A DNA stretch of 37,150 bases from an uncultured Candidatus Saccharibacteria bacterium (lineage in GTDB: Bacteria > Patescibacteriota > Minisyncoccia > Phycocordibacterales > UBA2100): the NCBI GenBank assembly GCA_964604085.1, contig CAZRXN010000002.1, positions 5,508 through 42,657 on the forward strand, written 5' to 3'. Below, piece after piece: positions 24,989-37,138 of this stretch. Positions within the stretch are counted from its first letter, which is position 1, and every line of letters begins with the position of its first letter. The notes below the pieces were generated by a model, which was not told the DNA's origin, searched no databases, and saw nothing but the letters and a program-made list of their open reading frames with translations. Position numbers and translations under genes: made by a program.

Positions 24989-25894
24989 TTATGCGCGGCT
25001 CTTTTGCGCGAGGATGTTGATCGCGCGCGTAATCACCGGAAGGATGTCATCGTAAAAATTGAGGTCGCCGACACGTGCGAGCGGAAACCACTGCGCGTCG
25101 TCCAGACCGCCCTCTTTCTTGAGCCGCAGTTCCGAAAAGGGCGCGCGCGCGAGGAAGTAGGTCGCATGCCGTTTCTTTTTGCCGTGAGCGCCATTTGATG
25201 AATCGTTGGCGATGTACTCGTTCTCGCCGAGCTTCTCCTCTACTTCGACATCAAGACCGATTTCCTCTTTCACTTTTCGCAGAACGCCCTCCTCGTGACC
25301 CTCGTTCTGCTTGAGTTTCCCCTTTGAGAGCGTCCAGTGTCCAAAAATGTCGTGCACGAGGGCAAGGTATACGCCGTCAGGATCCCGCGCGTACACCACT
25401 GCCCCGACGAGCTCTTCGATCGGCATGGGGCCGCCCTTCTCTTTCCGCTTCGACCCCTCTGCTTTTCCCGGCTCGCCGAGCTCGATATATACAGCGCCCA
25501 AAACGCCGTTGACGAAGCGACTTGAGGCGCTGGAGCCAAACGTCTTCGCGAGCTCGATTGCTTCGTTGATGGCCACCTTTGCGGGAACCTGGGAACGGTC
25601 TGCATACAGCAGCTCCGCAAAGCCGATCCGCAGCACGTTTCGATCGATTGCCGCGATCTTTTCCAAAGGCCACTCGGGTGCCGCACGCGCGATCACCGCG
25701 TCTATTTCGCTCTGCTTGGCGATGACCGTCTTGAGGAGCGACTGCATGAATGGCATGTCCTGCGGGCGTGCGCCGAATTCGGAGGCATATGAGGAGAGAT
25801 GCTCCAGGGACTGCTCGAGCGACGTGTCGCCCGACTGATCCCTCTCGAAGAGGACCTGAAGGACGACGGATCGCGCAAGATGCCTATTTGCCAT
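24989..25894 (-). CDS. nusB: NusB antitermination factor fused to a C-terminal Nudix hydrolase domain
   Basis: ORF 24989..25939, start ATG 25894 (MANRHLARSVVLQVLFERD). NusB core: AIDRNVLRIGFAELLY ... VAINEAIELAKTFGSSASSRFVNGVLGAV. After a Lys/Glu/Gly linker comes the Nudix box GKLKQNEGHEEGVLRKVKEEIGL (G-x5-E-x7-R-x-U-x-E-E-x-G-U). Confidence 0.85.
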   Translation of the reverse strand: MANRHLARSVVLQVLFERDQSGDTSLEQSLEHLSSYASEFGARPQDMPFMQSLLKTVIAKQSEIDAVIARAAPEWPLEKIAAIDRNVLRIGFAELLYADRSQVPAKVAINEAIELAKTFGSSASSRFVNGVLGAVYIELGEPGKAEGSKRKEKGGPMPIEELVGAVVYARDPDGVYLALVHDIFGHWTLSKGKLKQNEGHEEGVLRKVKEEIGLDVEVEEKLGENEYIANDSSNGAHGKKKRHATYFLARAPFSELRLKKEGGLDDAQWFPLARVGDLNFYDDILPVITRAINILAQKSRA

Positions 25895-25970
25895 AGAGAA
25901 CAATTTCCTTAGTGTACAAAATTTCCCCCCGAGCAACACCGCGGGATCGGGAAAAGTCGGGACAAGGCGC

Positions 25971-26252
25971 TTACGCCGTCGCCTCTGTCTTTTCCTGTTC
26001 CTTCCCGGTGCTCTTTACCTGTCCGCTCTCGCGTAGCTCCTTTTCCTTGCGCGCGGATCGCCTCGCATCGCGTTTGGCGCGGGCTACGACATCGATGACG
26101 ACGCGGCCGCGGTATCGGCCGCACTCCAGACAGGCGCGGTGCGGCAAACGAAGAGCTCCGCACTCACAGCGCACTGCACGCGGCGAAGAGAGCCCCTGAT
26201 GGCTCCTGCGCTTTCCTGTTTTCGAGCGGTTCGCCCGCATTCGAACTACCAT
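25971..26252 (-). CDS. rpmF: 50S ribosomal protein L32 (4-Cys zinc-ribbon form) with a charged C-terminal tail
   Basis: C-terminal 93 aa of ORF 25971..26534, from ATG 26252: MVVRMRANRSKTGKRRSHQGL ... CECG ... HRACLECGRYRGR. Confidence 0.9.
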   Translation of the reverse strand: MVVRMRANRSKTGKRRSHQGLSSPRAVRCECGALRLPHRACLECGRYRGRVVIDVVARAKRDARRSARKEKELRESGQVKSTGKEQEKTEATA

Positions 26253-26262
26253 AGTTCGCGCA

Positions 26263-26886
26263 TTATACGGATATTTCGGCGTTTTGCAAAATATCCGAAG
26301 GTGCGAGGAGGCGGGTGCAGAATGTCGTTCGATGGAGCGGGCAAAAGCCGAAGCGGGCGATGCGCGCACGGTGCGACGGCGTTCCGTACCCCTTGTGCAC
26401 CTCAAAGCCGTAGACGGGGTACGAGCGCGCGAGCCGACGCATGTACCTGTCTCGCAGCACCTTCGCGACGATGCTCGCAAGCGAAATGACGGGTTCCTGC
26501 TCGTCCCCGCGGATGATCGTCCGCTGCGCGCCATAGGCGGCGGGCGCGCGCAGTCCTCCGTCGAGACGCACCTCGCACGTCGCAGGGTCCGCCGACACGC
26601 GCTTCAATACCCGCGAAAGGCTCGACCGAATAGCCGGGACGATGCCCTGCTCATCGATCACCACAGCCGAGGAGAACGATACTCCGAAGGAGAGGAGTCC
26701 GGATTGGTTCAGTTCGCGAATGCGACGGTACCACGTTTCGCGCGCCTCCGGGGAGAGCTGTTTGGAGTCGCGCACGCCGCGAACCAGCTCAAAATCGAAC
26801 GAGGCGGGGATGAGCACCGCACCAACGGCTACCGGCCCCGCGAGCGGCCCTCTGCCCGCTTCATCCACACCCACGAGGTACTGCAC
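26263..26886 (-). CDS. rnhB: Ribonuclease HII
   Basis: ORF 26263..27198. VGVDEAGRGPLAGPVAVGAV, DSKQLS, SIVAKVLRD and GYGT motifs. Start placed at GTG 26886 because TGGTATGAT lies 6 nt upstream and because ATG 26964 would overlap the divergent dnaE start. The start is uncertain. Confidence 0.8.
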   Translation of the reverse strand: MQYLVGVDEAGRGPLAGPVAVGAVLIPASFDFELVRGVRDSKQLSPEARETWYRRIRELNQSGLLSFGVSFSSAVVIDEQGIVPAIRSSLSRVLKRVSADPATCEVRLDGGLRAPAAYGAQRTIIRGDEQEPVISLASIVAKVLRDRYMRRLARSYPVYGFEVHKGYGTPSHRARIARFGFCPLHRTTFCTRLLAPSDILQNAEISV

Positions 26887-26892
26887 CCGCTC

Positions 26893-26928
26893 ATCATACC
26901 AGAGCGAGTCCCGACCCCTTGGTATACT
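26893..26928. promoter_or_regulatory. Back-to-back divergent extended -10 elements (rnhB and dnaE)
   Basis: Minus strand: TGGTATGAT (26893..26901), 6 nt before GTG 26886. Plus strand: TGGTATACT (26920..26928), 6 nt before dnaE ATG 26935. No SD on either side. Confidence 0.5.
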
Positions 26929-26934
26929 TGCAGC

Positions 26935-29900
26935 ATGTCGCGCGCGCGTTTCGTACACCTCCATACCCACTCTCACTACTCCCTTCTCGAAGCGCTCCCG
27001 AAGATCCCCGAGCTCGTTTCCGCTGCAAAAGAGGACGGCCAGAGTGCGCTCGCGCTCACGGATAACGGCAATCTCTACGGCGCGATTGAATTCTATAAGG
27101 AGTGCCTCAAGCAGGAGATGAAGCCCATCATTGGCGTCGATTTTTACGTCGCACCCCGCACCCGATTGGATAAAGAGCATCGGGTCGACGAGCACCACTC
27201 ACGTCTGGTCCTACTCGCAAAAAGCGCGGAGGGGTATGCGAATCTCATCCAGCTAGTCTCCGCCTCCTACCTTGAAGGATTCTTTCACCGGCCGCGGATA
27301 GACCGCGAGCTTATCGAACGGCATCGGGAGGGGCTGATCGCGATCCTCCCGGCATTCGCGGGCGAGCACGCGCGTGCCGTGCGCGACGGCCAAGCACGGA
27401 AGGCACAAGAATCGCTCGCATGGTACGCACAAATCTTTCCCGACGAGTGCTTTGCGGAAGTAACGCGGCACCCGGAGATAGAAGGCAGCGAAAAGGATAT
27501 GCGCGCGATCGTCGCGGCGGCGCAGAAAGCGGGAGTACCGCTCGTCGCCTCACACGAATGCTATTACCTGAAGCAAGACGAAGCACTCGCGCGGGAGCTC
27601 GTCGTCCGCATCAGGGAGGGCGGCGTGCTGAATCGAGAGTGGGGCGATGCAGTCCACGACTTTTCATTCAAAGGAAGCGCCGCAATGGAAGCGGCATTCG
27701 TGGACCTTCCGGAAGCGATCGAGAACACGGCGAAAATCGCGGACGCCTGCGCGCTGGAGCTCACGCTTGGAAAGGCGATTTTTCCCGACTTCCCTATCCC
27801 GAAGGGCTCGAGCGCCGACGCCGAGCTGCGCGCAAGGGCGGAGCGCGGTATCGCGGAGCGCGGCATGGAGAACACGCCAGAGGTACGAGCTCGCATCGAT
27901 CATGAGCTCACGATCATAGAAAAGAAACAGTACGCATCGTACTTCCTGATCGTGGCCGATCTTCTCGCGTGGGCTCGCGGCGCGGGAATCTATACAAACA
28001 CGCGCGGTTCGGCTGCCGGGTCGCTCGTTTCCTATCTGTGCGGCATCACCACCGTGGATCCGCTCGCCTTCCGCATGCCGTTCGAGCGGTTTCTCAATCC
28101 CGAGCGCCCTTCGGCACCCGATATCGACATGGATATCGCCGATAACCGCCGAGACGAGCTTATAGATTACGCGCGCGCGAAGTACGGCGAAGATCGCGTC
28201 GTGCAGATCGGCACGTTCGGCACAATGCTGGCACGAGCAGCCGTGCGAGACGTCGCGCGCGCACTCGGACACTCATACGGAACGGGCGACCGGATCGCCA
28301 AGCTCATCCCCTTCGGCAAGCAAGGGTTCCCCGTAACGATCGCCGGTTCGCTCGAATCGGTCCCCGAACTGAAAGAGGCGTACGACATGGATGCGGATGC
28401 GCGCGAGATCCTCGATCTCGCGCGCAAGATCGAAGGCAACGCCCGGCACGTCGGCGTCCACGCCGCGGGCGTCGTGATCGCGCCGGAAGCTGCGACACGC
28501 TACGTCCCCATCCAGCTCGACCCGAAGGGCGGCAAGACGATTACGCAGTACGATATGTACTCCATCGCCGACGAGTACGGCGGAGTCGGGCTCCTTAAGT
28601 TCGACTTCCTCGGTCTTAAGAACCTCTCCGTGCTCGCGGACTCCGTCGCGCGCGTCGAAGCGCGGCTCGGCGAGCGAGTCGATCTCGATCGCATCCCGCT
28701 CGATGCGCCCGCCGTGTATGAGATGCTCTCGCGCGGCGAAACGCTCGGCGTATTTCAAATGGCGGGCAGCGGCATGACGAGCTACCTCAAGGATCTGAAG
28801 CCCACCGTCATACACGACCTGAACGCGATGGTCGCACTCTACCGCCCCGGTCCGATGGCCTTCATCCCCGAGTACATCGAGCGCAAGCGAAATCCCGCGC
28901 GCGTGCGCTACCTTGACCCGCGCCTCGAGAGCATACTGAAGCCGACCTACGGCGTGCTCATTTATCAAGATGACGTCATGACGATCGCGGTAGAGCTCGC
29001 CGGCTACTCCTGGGGTGAGGCGGACAAGCTCCGCAAAGCGATGGGTAAAAAAATACCTGAAGAGATGCGCGCGCAGAAGGACCGCTTTCTCAAGGGGTGC
29101 GTCGAGCGCGGCATGACGGAGAGCGTCGCAAAGCAGCTCTGGGAGCAGATCGAGACATTCGCCGCGTACGGTTTCAACAAGGCGCATGCGGCGAGCTACG
29201 GAAACCTCGCTTACAAGACCGCGTACATGAAGGCGCTCTATCCGGTCGACTACATGGCGAGCGTCCTCTCGGCAGATGCGGGCGACGTGGAGAAGATCGC
29301 CGAGATCGTGTCGGAGTGCGTCCGCATGGGCATCACCATCCTGCCGCCGTCCGTCGAAGAGAGCCGGGGTACATTCACGGTCACGGACGATCGGACGATT
29401 CGATTCGGCCTGTATTCGATAAAAAATTTCGGCACCGGCGTCGCCGATTCGATCATCGCAGAGCGCGAAGCAAACGGACCGTTTGCCGACCTCGCGGACT
29501 TCCTCTCACGAATAAGCGACAAGAATCTGAATAAGAAAGCACTGGAATCGCTCATCAAGTGCGGCGCGCTCGACCACTTCGGCGAGCGGAACCTGCTCCT
29601 CGCCAATATCGAGGCGCTCCGCGCATTCCATAAGGAGCACACGCAAGCGCCAAGCGATCAGGTATCGCTTTTCTCCGGCGCGCTTCCACGCGATATGAAG
29701 CTGACACTCCCCGAGCGTGCGACGCCCGCCTCACTTGAGGAGCGGCTCACCTGGGAGAAGGAGCTGCTCGGCTTCTACATCTCCGGTCACCCGCTCGATC
29801 GGCACCGGGAGAAGCTCGGGCGCGCCAAAGACATCAAGCACACGAAGGAGCACCTCCGCGGCGCAGAGACCGTGATCGCCGGATACATCGAAAGCGTGCA

Positions 29901-30105
29901 AACGATCCTCACGAAGCACGGTGATCGAATGGGATTTCTCAAAGTGTCTGACTATTCCGATGGGATAGAAGTCGTCGCTTTTCCGCGCCTTTTGAAGGAG
30001 CACGGCGAGCTACTCGTGTCTGGCGCCTGCATTATGCTAAAAGGAAAGATCTCCGAACGGAACGGCGAGCCAAGCTTTGTTGCGGATAAAGTGAAGGCGC
30101 TATAG
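26935..30105 (+). CDS. dnaE: DNA polymerase III alpha subunit
   Basis: ORF 26284..30105, start ATG 26935 (MSRARFVHLHTHSHYSLLEA, PHP domain). Polymerase core with FDFLGLKNL, YRPGPM and GFNKAHAASY. Clamp-binding-like QVSLF. Ends right after the OB fold, so there is no long C-terminal tau-binding region. Confidence 0.95.
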   Translation: MSRARFVHLHTHSHYSLLEALPKIPELVSAAKEDGQSALALTDNGNLYGAIEFYKECLKQEMKPIIGVDFYVAPRTRLDKEHRVDEHHSRLVLLAKSAEGYANLIQLVSASYLEGFFHRPRIDRELIERHREGLIAILPAFAGEHARAVRDGQARKAQESLAWYAQIFPDECFAEVTRHPEIEGSEKDMRAIVAAAQKAGVPLVASHECYYLKQDEALARELVVRIREGGVLNREWGDAVHDFSFKGSAAMEAAFVDLPEAIENTAKIADACALELTLGKAIFPDFPIPKGSSADAELRARAERGIAERGMENTPEVRARIDHELTIIEKKQYASYFLIVADLLAWARGAGIYTNTRGSAAGSLVSYLCGITTVDPLAFRMPFERFLNPERPSAPDIDMDIADNRRDELIDYARAKYGEDRVVQIGTFGTMLARAAVRDVARALGHSYGTGDRIAKLIPFGKQGFPVTIAGSLESVPELKEAYDMDADAREILDLARKIEGNARHVGVHAAGVVIAPEAATRYVPIQLDPKGGKTITQYDMYSIADEYGGVGLLKFDFLGLKNLSVLADSVARVEARLGERVDLDRIPLDAPAVYEMLSRGETLGVFQMAGSGMTSYLKDLKPTVIHDLNAMVALYRPGPMAFIPEYIERKRNPARVRYLDPRLESILKPTYGVLIYQDDVMTIAVELAGYSWGEADKLRKAMGKKIPEEMRAQKDRFLKGCVERGMTESVAKQLWEQIETFAAYGFNKAHAASYGNLAYKTAYMKALYPVDYMASVLSADAGDVEKIAEIVSECVRMGITILPPSVEESRGTFTVTDDRTIRFGLYSIKNFGTGVADSIIAEREANGPFADLADFLSRISDKNLNKKALESLIKCGALDHFGERNLLLANIEALRAFHKEHTQAPSDQVSLFSGALPRDMKLTLPERATPASLEERLTWEKELLGFYISGHPLDRHREKLGRAKDIKHTKEHLRGAETVIAGYIESVQTILTKHGDRMGFLKVSDYSDGIEVVAFPRLLKEHGELLVSGACIMLKGKISERNGEPSFVADKVKAL

Positions 30106-30117
30106 AGTAGATGAACT

Positions 30118-31869
30118 ATGGCGGACGGCGACGCACTTGCGCATACGCGACACACACTTGCTCATCTCCTCGCCGCCTCCGTTCGCGAACACTATCCGGA
30201 CGCGAAGTTGACCCTAGGACCCGCGATCGACACGGGATTTTATTACGACATAGATTTCGGCAGCGAAAAGATCTCCGATGAAGATCTCTCGAAACTCGAG
30301 GAGACCATGCGCGCGCTCCTTCCCACGTGGGACGATTTTACCCACCGAGAAGTATCGAAAGAGGAAGCGCTCGCACTCTTTGCCGGGAATCCCTATAAGG
30401 AGGAGCTCATTCGGGAAATAGCGGATCGCGGGGAGTCCATCACGCTCTATACGTGCGGCAATTTTACCGACCTGTGCCGCGGCGGCCACACGGAGCACCC
30501 CTCGAAAGAGATCAAGCCGGATTCTTTCAAGCTCGACCGCATTGCGGGCGCATACTGGCGCGGCGACGAAAAAAATCCCATGCTCACCCGCATCTACGGC
30601 CTCGCATTCAAGACGAAAGCTGCGCTCGACGAGTACCTCGCGATGCGCGAAGAGGCCTTACGCCGAGACCACCGGAAAATCGCTAAAGAGCAAGACCTCC
30701 TGATTTTTTCGGACCTGGTCGGAAGCGGCATGCCGCTCTATACGCCGCGCGGCAATCTCGTACGTGGCGCGATCGTTGCCTACTCGCGCGAGCTCAACGA
30801 GCGCCTCGGCTTCGGAGAGGTGCATACGCCAAACATCAACAAAGCGGAGCTTTTCAAGATTTCCGGCCACTACGATCAGTACAAGGACGACATGCTCTCG
30901 GTGAGCTCCCAGTACGTAGCCGATGAAATGTTTCTCAAGCCCATGAACTGCCCGCAGCACACGCAAATTTACGCCTCGCGGCCCCGTAGTTATCGCGACC
31001 TCCCGCTCCGATACGCTGACTTCGCGAACCTCTATCGCGACGAGCGCCCCGGAGAATTATCGGGACTGACGCGTCTGCGCGCGTTCGCGCAGGACGACGG
31101 CCACATCTTCTGCCGAGTTGATCAGATCGAGGAAGAAGTCTCGGAGGTGCTCGGAGCGATTCAAGACGCGCTCGCTACATATAAGATCGACTATTGGATG
31201 CGGCTCTCGCTGCGCGATGAAAATAATACGGCGAAGTACCTCGGAGACGATGCGATCTGGCAGTCCTCACAGACGATCTTGCGCGACCTTTTGCAAAAAA
31301 AGAAAATCGAGTTCAAGGAGGCGGAGGGTGAAGCGGCTTTTTATGGCCCAAAGATAGACATCATGGCGGTGGATGCCCTCGGAAGAGAGTGGCAAATTTC
31401 GACGGTGCAACTCGATTTCAATCAGCCGGCCCGCTTCGGACTCACCTACGCGGATTCCGACGGCTCGGAAAAAATTCCGGTCATGATCCATCGTGCGCTT
31501 ATTGGCTCGCCCGATCGCTTCCTCGGCATTCTTCTCGAGCACTATGCGGGAGCACTCCCCACGTGGCTTGCGCCCTATCCAGTGCGCATCCTCCCCGTAT
31601 CTGATAAGCATGCTTCATACGCGGGAGAGGTCCGCGCATTTCTAGGTGAGCGCGGTATTCGGGCTGAGCTCGACGATTCGAACGAGACACTCGGCAAGCG
31701 GATCCGCGAGGCAAAGCTCGCGAAAATTCCCTACGTGCTCGTCGTCGGTGACACCGAAGTTGCGGCCGGATCCGTCACCGTGGAGAGCCGAGACAAGGGA
31801 AAGATCGGCGCACGCTCGAAAGAGGAGTTCGCGGACGATCTCATTGAGGAGATTCGCACGCGCGCCTAG
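30118..31869 (+). CDS. thrS: Threonyl-tRNA synthetase lacking the N-terminal TGS domain
   Basis: 583 aa. Begins in the editing/SAD region (HTRHTLAHLLA, H-x3-H). Class II core with FLKPMNCPQH, RYADFANLYRDERPGELSGLTRLRAFAQDDGHIF and FYGPKID, followed by an anticodon-binding domain. Confidence 0.93.
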   Translation: MADGDALAHTRHTLAHLLAASVREHYPDAKLTLGPAIDTGFYYDIDFGSEKISDEDLSKLEETMRALLPTWDDFTHREVSKEEALALFAGNPYKEELIREIADRGESITLYTCGNFTDLCRGGHTEHPSKEIKPDSFKLDRIAGAYWRGDEKNPMLTRIYGLAFKTKAALDEYLAMREEALRRDHRKIAKEQDLLIFSDLVGSGMPLYTPRGNLVRGAIVAYSRELNERLGFGEVHTPNINKAELFKISGHYDQYKDDMLSVSSQYVADEMFLKPMNCPQHTQIYASRPRSYRDLPLRYADFANLYRDERPGELSGLTRLRAFAQDDGHIFCRVDQIEEEVSEVLGAIQDALATYKIDYWMRLSLRDENNTAKYLGDDAIWQSSQTILRDLLQKKKIEFKEAEGEAAFYGPKIDIMAVDALGREWQISTVQLDFNQPARFGLTYADSDGSEKIPVMIHRALIGSPDRFLGILLEHYAGALPTWLAPYPVRILPVSDKHASYAGEVRAFLGERGIRAELDDSNETLGKRIREAKLAKIPYVLVVGDTEVAAGSVTVESRDKGKIGARSKEEFADDLIEEIRTRA

Positions 31870-32429
31870 CGGCGCAAGCCGAATCGCCGCAGAGCGCGCA
31901 GCATCTGTGCGTACAGTCCGCCGCGCCAAAATACAATCAGGTAGGCCCCTGCGATAGAAATGGCGATAAGACCTGCCCAGTACAATGCGTTGCCTATCGG
32001 CCCGAAGTCGAAACCCGTATAGGGCAAACTGGAGACCGAAATTGTCGTACTCGAAGCGGTGCTCCTGCACACGGTCTCACCGGCCTGCCCTACCGCCGTG
32101 AGCGTATATACCTCAGTGGGGCTTGCGACCGCTCTCGTGCCGGAAAGCGGTACGGGGCCTATACCGTGATCGATCGAGGCCGATGACGCGTTTGCCACCG
32201 ACCAGCCGAGCACCCCCGACGCGCCCATGTCCCGCATTTCGATATAGCACGCAGGTACCGACGTACTCGTAGAACTGGCGGTCGTGCTAGCGGAGTCTGC
32301 ATGTACGACTGCTCCCGAACCGACCAGCGCGAATGGAACAGCCTCGAAGAAAATGACTGATCCGGCGACGATCGCGATAATGAATCCTATCTGCCAAAAC
32401 CTCGCAAAAAATTTTTGTATGCTTTGCAT
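31866..32429 (-). CDS. Surface/membrane protein, short paralogue (one Cys-bracketed repeat + PYTG C-terminal module)
   Basis: 187 aa. N-terminal hydrophobic anchor, one repeat unit (C61 ... C121) and the C-terminus SLPYTGFDFGPIGNALYW + TM + RRFGLRR. Its stop overlaps the thrS stop on CTAG (31866..31869). Confidence 0.65.
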   Translation of the reverse strand: MQSIQKFFARFWQIGFIIAIVAGSVIFFEAVPFALVGSGAVVHADSASTTASSTSTSVPACYIEMRDMGASGVLGWSVANASSASIDHGIGPVPLSGTRAVASPTEVYTLTAVGQAGETVCRSTASSTTISVSSLPYTGFDFGPIGNALYWAGLIAISIAGAYLIVFWRGGLYAQMLRALRRFGLRR

Positions 32430-32543: not shown

Positions 32544-34547
32544 TTAACTTCTATGAATCACGATGCGCGGCGCTTCGCCTCCCTTAGAAGGAATCATGCG
32601 CATGACATCGGCGAACTGCGCGCCATAGGTTCGGCTCCCGGCCGTGCGAAGGGCCTGCGGAATCCGGAATTCAGTCGCACTCTTCGCGTACGCGCGCGCC
32701 GTGCTTGCGATGGTGGCGCGGTAGTAGACTCCAAGGTAGAGGCACGCTACCGCGAGAGAGAGAATCGAGAGCCAGTAGGCTGCCGAGCCGATCGGTCCGA
32801 GGTCGAGCCCCGTATAGGGAACCTGCGTCAGGGAGATATACGGCGGTACCACCGGCGGAATGTACTGCTCCGTGCGGCAGGTTACGCTCTGCCCATTTGT
32901 GCCGTACGCGGTCATCGTGTACTGGGTGTAGCCACTAAGCTGCACGCTTCGCGATCCCGAGACGGCTACCGAGCCGATGTTGGAGATATACGCGGAGGTC
33001 GCGTTTGTCGAACCCCACGAGAGCGTCGCCTGATTGCCGTACCCATACTGATTGTAGTTCGATAGCGTGATCCAGCAGCTCGGGCCGGGCGTGTACGTGT
33101 TCACGTAGATCGTCGTGTGGCACTGCGCGCTCTGCCCGTTGTACCCGTACACCGTGAGCGTGTAGGTGGTCGTCGTGTTCGGGTAGACACTCTGGCTGCC
33201 GTTTACGCCGACGGACCCTATGTTGGTGAGGTAGGCGGACGTGGCGTTCGAGGACGACCAAGAAAGGTACGAGCTGCCGCCCTGTGAAATCGAAGTCGGG
33301 TTCGCGTAAATGCTGCACGAAGGCGTCTCGACCTGATTTACGTAGATGCTGGTCTGGCACTGCACGCTCTGTCCGTTCGTGCCATACACCGTGAGCGTGT
33401 ACGTTTTCGTGTGGTAGATGTCGTTCACCGTGCGCGATCCCGAAAGACCCACGGATCCGACACCGCCATCGATGAATGCAGAGCTGCCGTTCGTGGACGT
33501 CCACGAGAGCGTCGAGGAGCCGCCGTACTGCACGGAGCTCGGGTTGGCATAGATCGAACAGGTCGGCATTTGCTGCACCTCCACAACGATCGTGGTCGAG
33601 CACTGCGCCGTACCTCCCGGTCCGGAAATCGTCAACGTGTAGGTGCGCGTCGAAGTGAGGTTGTCCACGGTGCGGGAGCCGTTCAGCGAGACGGAACCGA
33701 TGCCGTGATTAAGGGATGCCGAAGTCGCGTTCGTAGACGTCCAAACGAGCGTGGACGCGCCGCCGTACTGCACCTGCGTAGGATTCGCGTAAATGGTGCA
33801 CGAGGGCGTCTGCTGTATTTTCACGATGATCGTGGTCTGGCACTTCGCGACGCCGCCCTGGCTGGTGACGGTGAGCGTATAGGTAACATCGCCAGTCAGA
33901 TTCGAAACCGTGTGCGAGCCGTTCTTAGAGACAGAGCCAATGCCGTGATCCAGCGATACCGAGGTGCCGTTGGTGGAGGTCCACGTAAGCGTAGACGAGC
34001 CGCCGTACTCGACGACACCAGGATTCGCCGAGAGCGTACAGCTCGGCTTTTGCGGCGGCGGGATTACGGTCACTTTGACGCTGCAGTCCTCGTCCCCGTC
34101 ATCGTTTGAGACGGTAAGGGTGTAGGTCGTAGTCGTATCCGGGGAAACGACACGGGATCCATCGTCCGGCACGTTCCCTATCCCATGATTGATGAATGCA
34201 TCGTCCGCGTTGGTAGATTCCCAGATCAGCGTCGTAGTCTCGCCCTTCACGATCGTCTTGATCGAGACGTCTATGTCGCAGGAGGGCGGCTGCTTCTTGT
34301 GGAAATTCCAGCCACCAGGGTTGAAATCGCCGCTGGAAGAGCCGTCGCCGCCAGAGCCGCAGCAGTCGCCGCCGCCGCCGCCATCACCACCGTCGGCGTG
34401 CGAGAGCAGTACGCCAATCGAAAGCGATCCGTCCTTCCCATGTTCAATGGAAAACGGCATCGCCATCGCAACAGAAATCGCGAGTGCGGCAGAGCCGATA
34501 ACGAAACCGATAACCCAGTAACGATTGAAAACGCGGCTGATAGACAT
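32544..34547 (-). CDS. Large surface protein: N-terminal anchor, Gly/Asp-rich DCC segment, six Cys-bracketed ~80-aa repeats, PYTG C-terminal module
   Basis: 667 aa. See the repeat feature. C-terminus LTQVPYTGLDLGPIGSAAYW + TM + about 58-aa tail ending GGEAPRIVIHRS. Confidence 0.8.
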   Translation of the reverse strand: MSISRVFNRYWVIGFVIGSAALAISVAMAMPFSIEHGKDGSLSIGVLLSHADGGDGGGGGDCCGSGGDGSSSGDFNPGGWNFHKKQPPSCDIDVSIKTIVKGETTTLIWESTNADDAFINHGIGNVPDDGSRVVSPDTTTTYTLTVSNDDGDEDCSVKVTVIPPPQKPSCTLSANPGVVEYGGSSTLTWTSTNGTSVSLDHGIGSVSKNGSHTVSNLTGDVTYTLTVTSQGGVAKCQTTIIVKIQQTPSCTIYANPTQVQYGGASTLVWTSTNATSASLNHGIGSVSLNGSRTVDNLTSTRTYTLTISGPGGTAQCSTTIVVEVQQMPTCSIYANPSSVQYGGSSTLSWTSTNGSSAFIDGGVGSVGLSGSRTVNDIYHTKTYTLTVYGTNGQSVQCQTSIYVNQVETPSCSIYANPTSISQGGSSYLSWSSSNATSAYLTNIGSVGVNGSQSVYPNTTTTYTLTVYGYNGQSAQCHTTIYVNTYTPGPSCWITLSNYNQYGYGNQATLSWGSTNATSAYISNIGSVAVSGSRSVQLSGYTQYTMTAYGTNGQSVTCRTEQYIPPVVPPYISLTQVPYTGLDLGPIGSAAYWLSILSLAVACLYLGVYYRATIASTARAYAKSATEFRIPQALRTAGSRTYGAQFADVMRMIPSKGGEAPRIVIHRS
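32841..34286 (-). repeat. Six tandem coding repeats (~80 aa each, beta-sandwich/Ig-like by pattern)
   Basis: Units start at PSCDIDV, PSCTLSA, PSCTIYA, PTCSIYA, PSCSIYA and PSCWITL. Each carries ...STL-x-W-x-STNA-x-SA...IGSV...GS-x-x-V...TYTLTV...C. Confidence 0.85.
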
Positions 34548-34625: not shown

Positions 34626-34940
34626 CTAACGGTCGAGATAGACGGTCGAGCCAATAATTCGACTCACGGTGTAGCGCACACCTTTAATGATCGTGCACCA
34701 CTCCCAGCTGGGGCGGATGTCCGCCATTCCGCAGCGGTACCCTCCTTGATTGGAAGTGAGGGTAATCTTTCCGGTCTGCCAACACCGGTGGCCTGGACAT
34801 TGAGAAGCTTTTCCCAATGTAATCCAGGCTCCCGGGTAGACGAACCCAGTCCCGCGTATGCAGTACGTGCCCGCAAACGCCTGAGAGGAAGCTGCAAAGA
34901 CCATCGCAGCAACCAGAACCCCCAGAGAAAACTTTTTCAT
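34626..34940 (-). CDS. Small secreted Cys-rich protein (signal peptide, 5 Cys in the mature part)
   Basis: 104 aa. MKKFSLGVLVAAMVFAASSQAFA/GTYC. Strong SD GGAGGAGGAG directly upstream. No family recognised. Confidence 0.65.
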   Translation of the reverse strand: MKKFSLGVLVAAMVFAASSQAFAGTYCIRGTGFVYPGAWITLGKASQCPGHRCWQTGKITLTSNQGGYRCGMADIRPSWEWCTIIKGVRYTVSRIIGSTVYLDR

Positions 34941-35055: not shown

Positions 35056-35081
35056 AAAAAACGGCCTTTCGGCCGTTTTTT
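35056..35081. terminator. Bidirectional rho-independent terminator
   Basis: AAAAAACGGCC (35056..35066) / GGCCGTTTTTT (35071..35081), loop TTTC. Lies downstream of the 654-aa gene stop (35114). Confidence 0.75.
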
Positions 35082-35113: not shown

Positions 35114-37078
35114 TTAATTTCGCTTAATGACAATGCGCGGCATTCCCCCGTCTTCCGGTTGTATGAATGACATACGATCGGAAGAGCTTTCGCTCGCGAC
35201 TGGCTGCACAGGCAGCACGGCAGGGCGCACTTCCCTTTCCATCTGCTCGCTCGCGCTCGGCTGCGTTCCGCCCGTGCGGCGCACGCTTGACGCGAGTCCC
35301 GTGGCAAAGGCGACCATGCCTCCCTTCCAGTAGATGAGAAGGTACGCGGCTGCCGCCGAGATCGAAAGGAGCGAGAGCCAGTACAGAGCGTTTCCAATCG
35401 GCCCGAAGTCGAATCCCGTGTACGGAATCTGCGTGAGCGAGATGCTTCCCGAGACGGTTACGTAGGTCTGGCAGGTGGACGTGTGGCCCTGGTAGTCCTG
35501 CACGGTCAGCGTATAGGTGCGGGACGTATTAGGGCGGACGCCGAGCGAGCCGTTCGCGGAAACGGAGCCGAGCCCGTCAGAGAGGTACGCAGAGTTTGCA
35601 CCTACGGAGGTCCAAGAGAGGTACGACGTCTCGCCATCGCGGATCGACGCGGGACTTGCGGAGATCGTGCAGGAAACCGGCTGCTGATTAACTACCGTCT
35701 GGCAGTTCGCGCTCTGTCCGTTGTACCCGTACACAGTCATCGAGTAGACGGTGCCGCTCGACGGGTATACGGTGCGCGACCCACTCGTGGAGACCGAGCC
35801 GATATTCGGCGAGATCGTAGCGGAGGTCGCATTGGTCGAGCCCCAGGAGAGCGTGGACTGATTGTTGTACGAAGAGTAAGGCGAGAGCGTGATCCAGCAG
35901 CTCGGCGCGCCCTGATTACTGGTGTAGACGGTGGCCTGGCAGTTCGCACTCTGGCCATTGTATCCGTACACGGTAAGCGTGTAGGTCATGGTGCCGTTCG
36001 GATACACCGTCCGGGAGCCATTGGTAGAGACGGAGCCGATATTGGAGAGCGAAGCGGAAGACGCATTGGAGCTATTCCACGTGAGCGTTACTGGAGAGCC
36101 CGAGTTCAGATTCGTCGTAGACGCGTAGATGGTGCACGAAGGCGCCTGCTGGCTCACATAGACGGTCGTCTGGCAGTTCGAGGTGCCGCCCTGGCCGTAG
36201 ACGGTGAGGACGTAGGTCGTCGTCTGGCTCGGGTATACCGACTGGGAACCGTTCGTAGAAACGGAGCCGACATTGGAGAGCGACGCCGAGGTGGCGTAGT
36301 TCGAGTGCCACACCAGCGAGACCGACTGTGCGGAGGTGATGCTGCCCGGGGTGGCGGTGATGCTGCAGCTCGGCTGATTGAACGTGTACTGGACCGGATG
36401 ATAATTCGAGGTCGTGATCGGCGTTACGTTCGCCACGGTGATCGGCTGCGCGATTGAAATCGGAGCCGAAATCGCTATCGGCGTCGAGTAGCTCGTGTAG
36501 GAGTACGTCGGCACGTACGCGTCGTAGACGTCATATACATCGTAGGCGCTGCCATAGACATCATACACGTCGTATACATCGTACGGGTCTACGGCATTAT
36601 TATATCCGTAATCATACAGTGGATCGTTGTAGTCGAAATTGTACGCTGGATCGTTGTAGTCGAATGGGAATGTGGCGTCGTTGTAGTCGAAGTCAAACGT
36701 GGAATCGTTATAGGCGACGTCGAACGCAGAGTCGTTGTACTCGTAATATGAGGAGTAATCGTTAAAGGTTGGATCGTAGGAGAAATCGTTATAGTCGTAC
36801 CACAAGGAGGAATCATTGTAGTCAAAACTATATAGAGTATCGTTGTAACCCCAATCGTACTCCGGCTCGTTATAGGAGTACGAGAAGTCGAAGTCATTGA
36901 ATCCGGGATCATAGGAGAAATCGTTATAGCCCAGATCGAAAGCAGCGTCGTTGTAACCAAAATCGTATTCGCAGCAATCGAACTGCGCGAACGTCTGTTG
37001 CGGGATGGAAGTTACTCCGACGAATACTGCACAAATCAGTATCCCGGAGAGGAGAAAACGCTGGATGGCTGAACTCAT
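35114..37078 (-). CDS. Large surface protein: signal peptide, YND nonapeptide-repeat region, DVY repeats, four Cys-bracketed repeats, PYTG C-terminal module
   Basis: 654 aa. Signal MSSAIQRFLLSGILICAVFVGVTSIPQQTFA/QFDCC. C-terminus LTQIPYTGFDFGPIGNALYW + TM + about 70-aa tail ending DGGMPRIVIKRN. Confidence 0.8.
   Translation of the reverse strand: MSSAIQRFLLSGILICAVFVGVTSIPQQTFAQFDCCEYDFGYNDAAFDLGYNDFSYDPGFNDFDFSYSYNEPEYDWGYNDTLYSFDYNDSSLWYDYNDFSYDPTFNDYSSYYEYNDSAFDVAYNDSTFDFDYNDATFPFDYNDPAYNFDYNDPLYDYGYNNAVDPYDVYDVYDVYGSAYDVYDVYDAYVPTYSYTSYSTPIAISAPISIAQPITVANVTPITTSNYHPVQYTFNQPSCSITATPGSITSAQSVSLVWHSNYATSASLSNVGSVSTNGSQSVYPSQTTTYVLTVYGQGGTSNCQTTVYVSQQAPSCTIYASTTNLNSGSPVTLTWNSSNASSASLSNIGSVSTNGSRTVYPNGTMTYTLTVYGYNGQSANCQATVYTSNQGAPSCWITLSPYSSYNNQSTLSWGSTNATSATISPNIGSVSTSGSRTVYPSSGTVYSMTVYGYNGQSANCQTVVNQQPVSCTISASPASIRDGETSYLSWTSVGANSAYLSDGLGSVSANGSLGVRPNTSRTYTLTVQDYQGHTSTCQTYVTVSGSISLTQIPYTGFDFGPIGNALYWLSLLSISAAAAYLLIYWKGGMVAFATGLASSVRRTGGTQPSASEQMEREVRPAVLPVQPVASESSSDRMSFIQPEDGGMPRIVIKRN
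35447..36373 (-). repeat. Four tandem coding repeats of the same ~80-aa Cys-bracketed unit
   Basis: Units start at PSCSITA, PSCTIYA, PSCWITL and VSCTISA. Same W-x-S-x-NA-x-SA / IGSV / TYTLTV / C pattern as in 32841..34286. Confidence 0.85.
36515..36982 (-). repeat. 14 x nonapeptide [YF]N[DE]-x-x-[FY]-x-x-x coding repeat (27-nt period), followed by (DVY)n
   Basis: aa 33-188: FDCCEYDFG YNDAAFDLG YNDFSYDPG FNDFDFSYS YNEPEYDWG YNDTLYSFD YNDSSLWYD YNDFSYDPT FNDYSSYYE YNDSAFDVA YNDSTFDFD YNDATFPFD YNDPAYNFD YNDPLYDYG YNN, then DPYDVYDVYDVYGSAYDVYDVYDAY. On the plus strand this shows as RTCRTTRTA recurring every 27 nt. Confidence 0.9.
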
Positions 37079-37109: not shown

Positions 37110-37138
37110 ATTATATCTTCAAACCAAATAGATGTCAA
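37110..37138 (-). promoter_or_regulatory. Perfect consensus sigma-70 promoter TTGACA-17 nt-TATAAT
   Basis: Minus strand: TTGACA (37133..37138), 17-nt spacer, TATAAT (37110..37115), 31 nt upstream of ATG 37078. No obvious SD in the leader. Confidence 0.6.

What the first reader, a model, noticed from the sequence alone, without database searches (positions are those of the whole stretch)
36515..36982. Fourteen-copy nonapeptide YND aromatic/acidic repeat followed by (DVY)n at the mature N-terminus of a surface protein
Seen: directly after the signal peptide and a QFDCC motif, the 654-aa protein has 14 consecutive 9-residue units. Each has [YF]-N-[DE] at fixed positions and an aromatic residue three positions later (consensus about D-x-[GD]-Y-N-D-x-x-[FY]). 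Then come DVY triplets (DPYDVYDVYDVYGSAYDVYDVYDAY). The region is almost entirely Tyr/Phe/Asp/Asn with no basic residues. The 27-nt DNA period is imperfect, so the repeat looks held at the protein level rather than recently slipped. Established: strict 9-residue periodicity with Asp/Asn/Gly is the hallmark of RTX calcium-binding beta-rolls (GGxGxDxUx), but this consensus differs and is aromatic-rich. Inference: it may be a new metal-binding (Ca2+) beta-roll or beta-solenoid-like module, or an adhesive module. I do not recognise it as any described repeat family, including RHS/YD repeats.
Basis: partly seen in the sequence, partly recalled or inferred. Interest (0 to 1): 0.7.

Follow-up and report, generated by a model that had tools for sequence, protein, structure and literature searches.

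The report
Acidic-aromatic repeat head of surface protein
An uncultured ultra-small (Parcubacteria-type) bacterium carries a surface protein whose outer tip is 14 copies of a nine-residue Tyr-Asn-Asp unit; the unit is found nowhere else in public data and is kept by selection on the protein, related bacteria mount dozens of different acidic, aromatic repeat heads on the same anchor, and nothing yet shows it is a calcium-binding beta-roll.

Summary
The 654-aa ORF (35114..37078, minus strand) has 14 units with [YF]-N-[DEN] at exactly 9-residue spacing (aa 39-164), then DVY triplets (aa 165-188). There are no basic residues.

The array matches no known repeat family. Pfam, NCBIfam and PDB sequence searches gave nothing. 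A profile search of 1.84 billion proteins found only the protein itself.

Residues that are identical between units share a codon no more often than chance.

The array is one instance of a wider pattern. The protein belongs to an unnamed Parcubacteria/Kaiserbacteria family: signal peptide, 0-4 Ig-like domains, invariant [I/L]PYTG, membrane helix and tail, always beside thrS-dnaE. Fifty-nine of 158 sampled members carry a different acidic/aromatic tandem repeat (period 5-19) at the same N-terminal place. The DVY segment is a family-conserved junction.

The calcium beta-roll idea is unsupported but not excluded. The RTX features fail, and AlphaFold2 gives pLDDT below 50.

Best reading: a membrane-distal, hypervariable, polyanionic interaction head.

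The parts
37110..37138 (-). Sigma-70-type promoter match, TTGACA-17 nt-TATAAT, upstream of the gene
   Evidence: 12 of 12 consensus matches. It is a consensus match only, with no transcript data.
35114..37078 (-). Whole gene: 654-aa surface protein (P0001), stop codon included
   Evidence: ORF. 334 homologues at E<=0.001, named Parcubacteria, Kaiserbacteria or Paceibacterota hypothetical proteins by their sources.
36986..37078 (-). Signal peptide, aa 1-31 (MSSAIQR / FLLSGILICAVFVGV / TSIPQQTFA)
   Evidence: Read from the sequence: n-, h- and c-regions with Thr at -3 and Ala at -1. No signal-peptide predictor was available.
36971..36985 (-). QFDCC: mature N-terminus with the Cys-Cys dipeptide
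   Evidence: A CC dipeptide lies a few residues after the AxA site in many relatives, including the paralogue P0025.
36587..36964 (-). Fourteen nonapeptides, aa 39-164, consensus D-ar-(G/D)-Y-N-D-x-x-ar (ar = aromatic)
   Evidence: Same-codon test.
36515..36586 (-). DVY triplet stretch, aa 165-188; an expanded form of the family's YDVYDV junction motif
   Evidence: Local alignment to P0124, SAYDVYDVYDAYVPTYSYTS-YSTPIAISAP versus TAYDVYDVGYSYVPTYTAPSLYSAPIAVSKP. The motif is present in 18 of 59 cassettes.
36377..36514 (-). Tyr/Ser/Thr/Pro-rich and Pro-Ile-rich linker, aa 189-234
   Evidence: Homologous to the linkers of P0011 and P0124. pLDDT below 50.
35444..36376 (-). Four Cys-bounded Ig-like beta-sandwich domains, aa 235-545 (the stalk)
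   Evidence: AlphaFold2 pLDDT mostly above 90. Foldseek matches to Ig-like extender regions of giant adhesins: 9flw, 4p99, 6xi1. Invariant Cys, Trp and Gly columns.
35414..35425 (-). P-Y-T-G (aa 552-555) within LTQIPYTGFDFGP; an LPXTG-like motif
   Evidence: P552, T554 and G555 are invariant and Y553 is at least 90% conserved in 70 sequences.
35330..35404 (-). Transmembrane helix, aa 559-583
   Evidence: AlphaFold2 helix 559-583; hydrophobic sequence.
35117..35329 (-). Cytoplasmic tail, aa 584-654, ending in the conserved GMPRIVIKRN
   Evidence: The family consensus ends in G-x-x-P-R-x-x-I-x-R. Predicted hairpin 634-653, pLDDT about 72-75.
35056..35076 (-). Hairpin acggcc-gaaa-ggccgt followed by T5; probable intrinsic terminator
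   Evidence: Seen by eye. The scan did not flag it.
32544..34547 (-). Paralogue P0025 (667 aa): same anchor and Ig-like domains, with a short Gly/Asp-rich GGGDCCGSGG N-terminus in place of the repeat
31866..32429 (-). Mini paralogue (187 aa): one Ig-like domain, canonical LPYTG, membrane helix, short Arg-rich tail

Best explanation
The segment is the membrane-distal head of a cell-surface protein from a Parcubacteria/Kaiserbacteria-type (candidate phyla radiation) bacterium.

How the protein is built:
- It is exported by a Sec signal peptide.
- It is held at its C-terminus by an [I/L]PYTG motif plus a membrane helix. This may be a plain membrane anchor or a sortase-type signal.
- Four Ig-like domains act as a stalk.
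- The stalk holds out the first ~200 mature residues: a Cys-Cys dipeptide, 14 Tyr-Asn-Asp nonapeptides, and the DVY junction.

Place in the family: the array is this lineage's version of a hypervariable acidic-aromatic repeat cassette. Related proteins carry such a cassette at the same position, with quite different units.

Reading of the unit: each nonapeptide looks like a five-residue amphipathic strand (aromatic-Asp-aromatic-Gly/Asp-Tyr) followed by an Asn-Asp-x-x turn. The array is a strong polyanion, net about -38 with no basic residue, with 27% aromatic residues.

Proposed mechanism (inferred): the head is a regular, multivalent binding surface that needs divalent cations to neutralise and compact it. 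It contacts whatever the cell adheres to, such as a host cell envelope, a polymer or a mineral. Its sequence must stay regular within one protein but is exchanged between lineages as a module.

What is shown and what is inferred:
- Shown: export and anchor architecture, the stalk fold, protein-level selection on the unit, uniqueness of the unit, and cassette diversity.
- Inferred: cation dependence, regular fold, and binding function.
For: Architecture:
- Signal peptide, PYTG motif, membrane helix and conserved tail.
- Ig-like stalk with pLDDT above 90, resembling adhesin extender domains.

Selection on the unit:
- The Tyr, Asn and Asp codons are essentially invariant at positions 1-2. Their third positions have pairwise identities of 0.47, 0.64 and 0.46.
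- Residues identical between units share a codon 0.55 of the time. Random codon choice predicts 0.58.
- Codon usage in the array equals that of the housekeeping genes.
- There is no indel across 14 units.
- Three other arrays behave the same way. P0112, P0161 and P0153 have peptide identity 0.86-0.94, with the same codon in 0.43-0.56 of pairs against 0.43-0.50 expected.

Cassette diversity:
- 59 of 158 sampled members have acidic-aromatic repeats with periods 5-19 and K+R at or below 4%.
- A cassette can sit directly on the anchor with no Ig-like domain, as in P0124.
- Proteins 81-88% identical downstream of YDVYDV carry three unrelated unit types, and 3, 4 or 7 matches to the DSY.YN[YF] unit.

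Conserved locus: the genes lie beside thrS-dnaE in the window and in five other loci.

Charge: net charge 0.24 per residue at mean hydropathy 0.40 places the bare chain on the natively unfolded side of the Uversky line. Counter-ions would therefore be needed for compaction.
Against: - There is no experimental or expression data of any kind.
- AlphaFold2 predicts no secondary structure for aa 1-230, either in context or alone.
- The YND unit has no orthologue. Conservation between species and copy-number variation could not be examined for this array.
- The family's repeat periods and motifs vary widely. This argues that composition, not a particular fold, carries the shared function.
- The binding partner is unknown.
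- The analogy with adhesin heads is an inference.
- The census comes from the hits of two searches, not from a random sample.
Confidence: 0.5

Rival explanations
1. It is a true calcium-binding beta-roll of the RTX kind. Two nonapeptides would make one turn of a parallel beta-helix. Ca2+ would be held in the Asn-Asp turns, and the aromatic residues would form the core.
For: - Strict 9-residue period with no indels.
- An invariant Asn-Asp pair, like the (N/D)-D that ends the RTX turn (consensus from PMC3034196).
- A conserved aromatic column.
- A polyanion that should be unfolded without cations, as RTX blocks are (PMC3034196).
- The related 9-mer array of P0112 has an 18-residue super-period.
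Against: - No G-G-x-G. Only one column has Gly, in 5 of 14 units, and bulky Tyr or Phe occupy the turn positions.
- When aligned on N-D, the hydrophobic column lies at +3, not +2.
- No match to PF00353 or any Pfam family, even at E<=1.
- No PDB sequence match.
- No 18-residue periodicity stronger than the 9-residue one in this array.
- The array is N-terminal and Sec-exported, not C-terminal with type I secretion.
- AlphaFold2 gives no solenoid.
Confidence: 0.12
2. It is an intrinsically disordered, negatively charged brush or spacer. It would keep the cell surface hydrated and repulsive, or simply add reach. It would have no defined fold or specific ligand, so only composition matters.
For: - AlphaFold2 pLDDT 33-48, with no secondary structure.
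- Charge-hydropathy values lie on the unfolded side.
- Relatives keep the composition (acidic, aromatic, few basic residues) but not the sequence or the period.
Against: - Position-specific conservation of Tyr, Asn, Asp and the second aromatic residue, with exact spacing, while synonymous sites are randomised. A composition-only constraint would tolerate indels and register loss.
- Other arrays keep 86-94% peptide identity at randomised codons.
- An aromatic content of 27% is unusual for disordered regions (own knowledge).
Confidence: 0.25
3. It is a structural wall or sheath component. Many Tyr-x-Tyr motifs would be oxidatively cross-linked, extensin-like, to build a covalent surface matrix.
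For: - Tyr is 21% of aa 33-190.
- Y-x-Y occurs repeatedly (YSY, YDY, YEY), followed by a Tyr/Ser/Thr/Pro-rich stretch.
- Relatives are likewise Tyr/Ser/Pro-rich, and one (P0181) carries a precomputed Extensin_1 Pfam tag.
Against: - No peroxidase or laccase gene lies in the 37-kb window.
- Phe replaces Tyr freely at the aromatic columns, which cross-linking would not allow.
- This rests purely on analogy.
Confidence: 0.06
4. It is not a functional feature: either a neutral slippage product, or not translated because the real start lies downstream.
For: Low-complexity composition. There is no homologue of the unit.
Against: - Synonymous sites between units are randomised while the motif is kept, and codon usage matches the genome.
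- The signal peptide needed by the Cys-bounded Ig-like domains lies upstream of the repeat.
- A consensus promoter match precedes ATG 37078.
- Equivalent cassettes recur in 59 relatives.
Confidence: 0.02

Closest known systems
RTX nonapeptide repeats (Pfam PF00353 HemolysinCabind; consensus X-(L/I/F)-X-G-G-X-G-(N/D)-D, PMC3034196)
   Same: Nine-residue period, an Asn/Asp-Asp pair, one conserved large hydrophobic column, a strongly acidic sequence, and probable disorder without counter-ions.
   Different: No Gly-rich turn, and aromatic residues at three of nine positions. The hydrophobic column is out of register. There is no HMM match. The array is N-terminal and Sec-exported, in a protein anchored at its C-terminus, whereas RTX repeats are C-terminal, type-I-secreted and found in Gram-negative bacteria.
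N-terminal hypervariable regions of wall-anchored fibrillar proteins such as streptococcal M protein (own knowledge)
   Same: The variable module sits at the tip far from an LPXTG-type anchor. It differs sharply between close relatives, while the stalk and anchor are conserved.
   Different: M protein is an alpha-helical coiled coil. Here the stalk is Ig-like and the tip is an acidic-aromatic short-period repeat. No host immune pressure is known for these bacteria.
Ser-Asp repeat region of staphylococcal Sdr/Clf MSCRAMM adhesins (SdrD: wall-anchored, calcium-binding adhesin; PMC13174682)
   Same: An acidic short-period repeat in an anchored surface protein, held at the peptide level with varied codons (own knowledge for the codon point).
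   Different: SD repeats are dipeptides without aromatic residues. They lie next to the wall anchor as a spacer, not at the distal tip.
Ig-like extender domains of giant bacterial adhesins (GhpA 9flw, MpIBP region II 4p99, Aeromonas RTX adhesin 6xi1)
   Same: The four domains at aa 235-545 match these folds (Foldseek E 1e-10 to 5e-13). They plausibly serve as a stalk.
   Different: This concerns the stalk, not the repeat. The protein is small (654 aa), Sec-exported and C-terminally anchored. No Pfam Ig family reaches threshold.
LPXTG sortase sorting signals
   Same: An invariant P-x-T-G just outside a hydrophobic helix. The 187-aa paralogue has exactly LPYTG plus a short Arg-rich tail.
   Different: P0001 has IPYTG and a 71-residue tail with a conserved C-terminal motif. 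There is no HMM match, and no sortase gene lies in the window.

Membership tests
RTX / HemolysinCabind beta-roll | Tandem nonapeptide period | tested here: met
   14 units at exact 9-residue spacing. Lag-9 identity 0.437 against 0.122 in shuffles.
RTX / HemolysinCabind beta-roll | Gly-rich calcium-binding turn G-G-x-G (consensus from PMC3034196) | tested here: not met
   Only one column contains Gly, in 5 of 14 units. The other turn positions are Asp or aromatic.
RTX / HemolysinCabind beta-roll | (N/D)-D pair followed by x-(L/I/F)-x, i.e. the hydrophobic residue at +2 | tested here: not met
   Asn (14/14) and Asp/Glu (13/14) are present, but the conserved aromatic residue lies at +3 after the Asp.
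RTX / HemolysinCabind beta-roll | Match to the family profile (PF00353) | tested here: not met
   No Pfam family at E<=1 for the whole protein or for the isolated repeat.
RTX / HemolysinCabind beta-roll | C-terminal position with type I secretion in a Gram-negative cell | tested here: not met
   The repeat follows an N-terminal signal peptide, and the C-terminus is a membrane helix plus tail.
RTX / HemolysinCabind beta-roll | Ca2+-dependent folding into a parallel beta-roll | not testable with these tools
   AlphaFold2 without ions or an alignment gave pLDDT 39 and no structure. This is uninformative about ion-dependent folding.
YD / RHS repeats | Match to the RHS repeat profile, and a unit of about 20 residues (own knowledge) | tested here: not met
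   No Pfam match. The period is 9.
Unnamed Parcubacteria [I/L]PYTG-anchored surface protein family (defined here) | N-terminal signal peptide, Cys-bounded Ig-like domains, invariant P-Y-T-G before a membrane helix, C-terminal P-R-x-x-I-x-R | tested here: met
   70-sequence alignment with invariant C, W, G, P552, T554 and G555. Structure model.
Unnamed Parcubacteria [I/L]PYTG-anchored surface protein family (defined here) | Location beside thrS and dnaE, usually as two or three paralogues | tested here: met
   Window: dnaE, thrS, then three paralogues. Also seen in L067, L068, L070, L071 and L072.
Unnamed Parcubacteria [I/L]PYTG-anchored surface protein family (defined here) | Acidic-aromatic tandem-repeat cassette ending in a YDVY-type junction | tested here: met
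   59 of 158 members have a cassette, and 18 of those 59 have the junction motif. P0001's junction aligns to that of P0124.
LPXTG sortase substrates | LPXTG pentapeptide, hydrophobic segment, short basic tail | tested here: inconclusive
   P0001 has IPYTG, a helix and a 71-residue tail. The 187-aa paralogue has LPYTG, a helix and an Arg-rich 19-residue tail. No NCBIfam or Pfam anchor model matches.
LPXTG sortase substrates | A sortase encoded in the genome | not testable with these tools
   Only 37 kb is available, and no sortase domain occurs among the ORFs scanned.

The most novel reading that the evidence does not exclude
The acidic-aromatic cassettes would be a new class of cation-stabilised repetitive folds. 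They would be beta-solenoid-like, with an aromatic ladder on one face and an Asp ladder on the other, and their coil length would differ by lineage (periods 5-19). They would be exchanged as modules at the conserved YDVY junction. Together they would serve as the host- or surface-specificity determinants of Parcubacteria, for which no such determinant is known.
Probability: 0.15. Interest if true: 0.8.

Novelty: new variant of a known kind. Interest (0 to 1): 0.5.

Why it matters
All cultivated Patescibacteria live attached to other microbes, and their host-recognition molecules are largely unknown apart from type IV pili (PMC12206443). This finding points to a conserved, syntenic locus that encodes anchored stalk proteins. 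Their exposed tips differ completely between close relatives, yet within each protein the tip is held rigidly regular by selection. That makes the locus an obvious candidate for host or surface specificity.

The arrays are also a natural library of short-period peptides whose synonymous sites are fully randomised. This separates selection on the protein from DNA-level repeat dynamics. It also offers test cases for cation-dependent repeat folding that current structure predictors do not resolve.

Tried and rejected
- **Word-index search:** a search with aa 1-237 found nothing, not even the protein itself. Local phmmer recovers the self-hit at 512 bits, so this miss reflects the word index and is not evidence.
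- **DNA pattern scans:** I scanned for three YND codon triplets at 27-nt spacing in 185,579 genomes, and used a stricter pattern in JGI metagenomes. They returned only unrelated simple repeats or non-coding DNA. The nearest in form were L015 (YNDxNYxQx), L007 (GYNDPYGGG), L046 (GFDPGFNDF x3) and L051 (DYNDVSYDY). The window's own contig is in neither collection.
- **Contig look-up:** P0001 is not on record in the look-up of encoding contigs.
- **Profile building:** an alignment of overlapping blocks (A2) was useless because MAFFT aligned the identical parts. I replaced it with three non-overlapping blocks (A3).
- **Nei-Gojobori pS values:** the values are inflated by two-fold degenerate codons. 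I rely on the same-codon test instead.
- **N-glycosylation:** rejected as the reason for the invariant Asn. N-x-S/T occurs in only 4 of 14 units, and the bacterial D/E-x-N-x-S/T sequon in only 2.
- **Diversity-generating retroelement:** not pursued. No reverse transcriptase is in the window, and Asn is invariant rather than variable.
- **Literature:** searches found no description of this family or repeat.
Full report
**1. The observation**

The finding lies in a 654-aa ORF on the minus strand, 35114..37078. Coordinates 36515..36982 are aa 33-188.

[YF]-N-[DEN] occurs at aa 42, 51... 159. That is fourteen copies at exactly nine-residue spacing with no indel. The unit reads as follows:
- Position 1: Asp in 8/14.
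- Position 2: aromatic in 10/14.
- Position 3: Gly in 5/14, Asp or Glu in 6/14.
- Position 4: Tyr or Phe in 14/14.
- Position 5: Asn in 14/14.
- Position 6: Asp or Glu in 13/14.
- Positions 7-8: variable.
- Position 9: Tyr or Phe in 11/14.

Lag-9 self-identity is 0.437. In 2000 shuffles it is 0.122 +/- 0.029, with a maximum of 0.218. The array is followed by PYDVYDVYDVYGSAYDVYDVYDAY (aa 165-188). Residues 33-190 contain 34 Asp, 33 Tyr, 16 Phe, 16 Asn and no Lys, Arg or His.

**2. Is the repeat translated?**

ATG 37078 is the first start, four codons after an in-frame stop. A perfect TTGACA-17-TATAAT match lies at 37138..37110. The first 31 residues read as a Sec signal peptide.

The downstream Ig-like domains each carry a conserved Cys pair, and they would lose their export signal if translation began after the repeat. 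Tyr, Asn, Asp and Phe codon usage in the repeat equals that of the window's housekeeping genes. The segment is therefore native and old, not a recent insertion.

**3. Selection on the repeat**

The 27-nt units are only 55% identical on average. At the Tyr, Asn and Asp codons, positions 1-2 are essentially invariant. The third positions have pairwise identities of 0.47, 0.64 and 0.46.

Over all pairs of identical residues in equivalent unit positions, the same codon is used 0.55 of the time. Random choice from the gene's own codon usage predicts 0.58. Synonymous sites are thus fully randomised between units, yet four or five columns and the exact spacing have been kept.

The Nei-Gojobori figures point the same way, but two-fold degenerate codons inflate them, so I do not rely on them.

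**4. Known families**

No known family matches:
- Pfam and NCBIfam give no match for the protein, nor does Pfam for the isolated repeat at E<=1.
- The sequence and a 36-column repeat profile find nothing in PDB sequences.
- The same profile, searched against 1.84 billion representative proteins, recovers only the protein itself (E = 2e-39). Three weak hits are perfect simple repeats of no similarity in kind.
- DNA pattern scans of 185,579 genomes and of JGI metagenomes found no related array.

The YND nonapeptide array is, for now, a singleton.

**5. The protein and its family**

The window is chromosomal. It carries hisS, an addA-like helicase-nuclease, rpoD, dnaG, rpoC, rpoB, smc, dnaE and thrS.

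The whole protein has 334 homologues at E<=0.001. Their sources name them as hypothetical proteins of Parcubacteria, Kaiserbacteria or Paceibacterota. Only the C-terminal two-thirds is conserved:
- Cys-bounded domains of about 80-90 residues.
- An invariant P-Y-T-G within LTQIPYTGFDFGP.
- A membrane helix.
- A tail ending in P-R-x-x-I-x-R.

AlphaFold2 with a 70-sequence alignment models four Ig-like domains (aa 235-545, pLDDT mostly above 90) and a helix at 559-583. Foldseek matches the domains to the Ig-like extender regions of giant adhesins: GhpA, MpIBP and an Aeromonas RTX adhesin.

With a cleaved N-terminal signal and a C-terminal anchor, the repeat is the part furthest from the membrane.

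The window holds three paralogues in a row beside thrS:
- P0001.
- P0025 (32544..34547), with a short Gly/Asp-rich GGGDCCGSGG N-terminus.
- A 187-aa mini version (31866..32429), with a canonical LPYTG and a short Arg-rich tail.

The same position beside thrS-dnaE recurs in five other loci.

**6. The repeat in family context**

I sampled 158 members with a complete N-terminus:
- 31 have nothing between the signal peptide and the first Ig-like domain.
- 37 have a short Gly/Asp-rich stretch, commonly with a Cys-Cys dipeptide a few residues after the AxA cleavage site.
- 59 have a long tandem repeat rich in acidic and aromatic residues, with K+R at or below 4%.
- 31 have other long N-terminal regions.

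Repeat periods in the 59 run from 5 to 19. Examples are LGYVDTYGSN, GTYFDDYDAGG, SWDSYTGGG, YGGYEPTYS, LGYYDSYGSN, GWGDTTYND and SYADSIDWSYEPSYS. Only the P0112 array (YDYGYDTGA / YDYGYDYGA) resembles the YND unit position by position.

A cassette can sit directly on the PYTG anchor with no Ig-like domain, as in P0124.

The DVY stretch is not peculiar to this protein. SAYDVYDVYDAYVPTYSYTS-YSTPIAISAP aligns to TAYDVYDVGYSYVPTYTAPSLYSAPIAVSKP of P0124. A YDVY-type junction occurs in 18 of the 59 cassettes. P0001 has simply expanded it.

**7. Evolutionary behaviour of the cassettes**

Three further arrays have peptide identity 0.86-0.94 between units. For identical residues, the same-codon fraction is 0.43-0.56, against 0.43-0.50 expected:
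- P0112: eleven 9-residue units.
- P0161: sixteen 9-residue units.
- P0153: nine 10-residue units.

These arrays are therefore not products of recent slippage or DNA-level concerted evolution. The peptide itself is selected in each unit.

Yet P0124 to P0128 are 81-88% identical downstream of the junction, and they carry three unrelated unit types. For one unit type, three of them hold 3, 4 and 7 matches to the DSY.YN[YF] pattern. The simplest reading is that cassettes are stable internally but are exchanged or replaced as modules between lineages.

**8. Structure of the repeat**

AlphaFold2 gives pLDDT 33-48 and no secondary structure for aa 1-230 in context. It gives pLDDT 39 for aa 32-197 alone. 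No alignment covers this region, so this is weak evidence for disorder.

Net charge is 0.24 per residue at mean hydropathy 0.40. This places the bare chain far on the unfolded side of the charge-hydropathy line, so counter-ions would be needed for any compaction.

Several features argue against simple disorder:
- The aromatic residues fall at unit positions 9, 2 and 4, that is at i, i+2 and i+4. Asp or Gly lies between them, which is the pattern of an amphipathic beta-strand.
- These are followed by Asn-Asp-x-x, in which position 7 is Pro or Ser in 6 of 14 units.
- The spacing is exact.
- Aromatic residues make up 27% of the segment.

I regard a regular, cation-neutralised repetitive structure as somewhat more likely than a plain disordered brush. 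Neither is shown.

**9. Comparison with RTX**

The RTX consensus is X-(L/I/F)-X-G-G-X-G-(N/D)-D. The first six residues form the calcium-binding turn, and two nonapeptides make one turn of the roll (PMC3034196).

The YND unit shares the period, an N-D pair and one hydrophobic column. It differs as follows:
- It lacks the Gly-rich turn.
- Aromatic residues sit where the Gly residues would be.
- Its hydrophobic column is one position out of register.
- It fails the profile match.
- It is N-terminal in a Sec-exported, C-terminally anchored protein.

It is not a member of the RTX family. Whether it works like one, by cation-dependent folding, remains open.

**10. Verdict**

The feature is the hypervariable, acidic-aromatic repeat head of a member of an undescribed Parcubacteria surface-protein family. 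The specific YND nonapeptide is unique in public data.

Function is inferred only from position, composition and evolutionary behaviour. The most likely role is a cation-dependent, multivalent interaction surface at the tip of the protein. Literature searches found no description of the family or the repeat.

Noticed in passing
window 31866..32429 (-): A third, 187-aa paralogue. It has a signal or membrane segment, one Cys-bounded Ig-like domain, a canonical LPYTG, a membrane helix and a short Arg-rich tail. This is the layout of a classical sortase sorting signal. No Pfam or NCBIfam match.
   Followed up: partly
window 32544..34547 (-): Paralogue P0025 (667 aa). It has the same Ig-like domains and anchor, but a short Gly/Asp-rich N-terminus with the same Cys-Cys dipeptide (GGGDCCGSGG). 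A CC dipeptide a few residues after the AxA cleavage site recurs in many relatives. Its role is unknown.
   Followed up: partly
window 34626..34940 (-): A 104-aa ORF with a signal peptide, several Cys and a strong GGAGGAGG ribosome-binding site lies between the two large paralogues. Small ORFs occupy the same position in L070 (89 aa) and L072 (132 aa). By eye, the L070 one is not obviously similar in sequence.
   Followed up: no
window 26284..32429; L067, L068, L070, L071, L072: The surface-protein genes always lie next to thrS and dnaE. L072 (P0153, small ORF, P0007, thrS) mirrors the window's order (P0001, small ORF, P0025, mini paralogue, thrS).
   Followed up: yes
P0124-P0128 (L070 3015..4181 for P0124): These proteins are 81-88% identical downstream of the YDVYDV junction, yet they carry three unrelated repeat units. 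For one unit type there are 3, 4 or 7 matches to the DSY.YN[YF] pattern. P0124 has a cassette directly on the PYTG anchor, with no Ig-like domain.
   Followed up: yes
P0118 (homologue, 601 aa): A Hint (intein/hedgehog-type) domain follows directly after the N-terminal CC and Gly/Asp-rich stretch (Pfam Hint E = 9e-7). This hints that some members autoprocess their N-terminus.
   Followed up: no
window 35056..35076 (-): Hairpin acggcc-gaaa-ggccgt followed by five T, just after the stop codon of P0001. It looks like an intrinsic terminator, but the scan did not report it.
   Followed up: no
window 24989..25939 (-) and 25971..26534 (-): One ORF combines NusB and NUDIX domains. The ribosomal protein L32 domain occupies only aa 103-148 of a 187-aa ORF, so there is either an N-terminal extension or a start codon further downstream.
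   Followed up: no
L015 1352..1414 (-), L007 5973..6035 (-), L046 3103..3165 (-), L051 1641..1703 (-): Unrelated organisms have other nine-residue repeats containing Y/F-N-D: Lachnospiraceae YNDxNYxQx before a membrane segment, a Sericytochromatia lipoprotein GYNDPYGGG, GFDPGFNDF x3 at the start of a cadherin-like ORF, and marine DYNDVSYDY. They are probably convergent low-complexity arrays.
   Followed up: no
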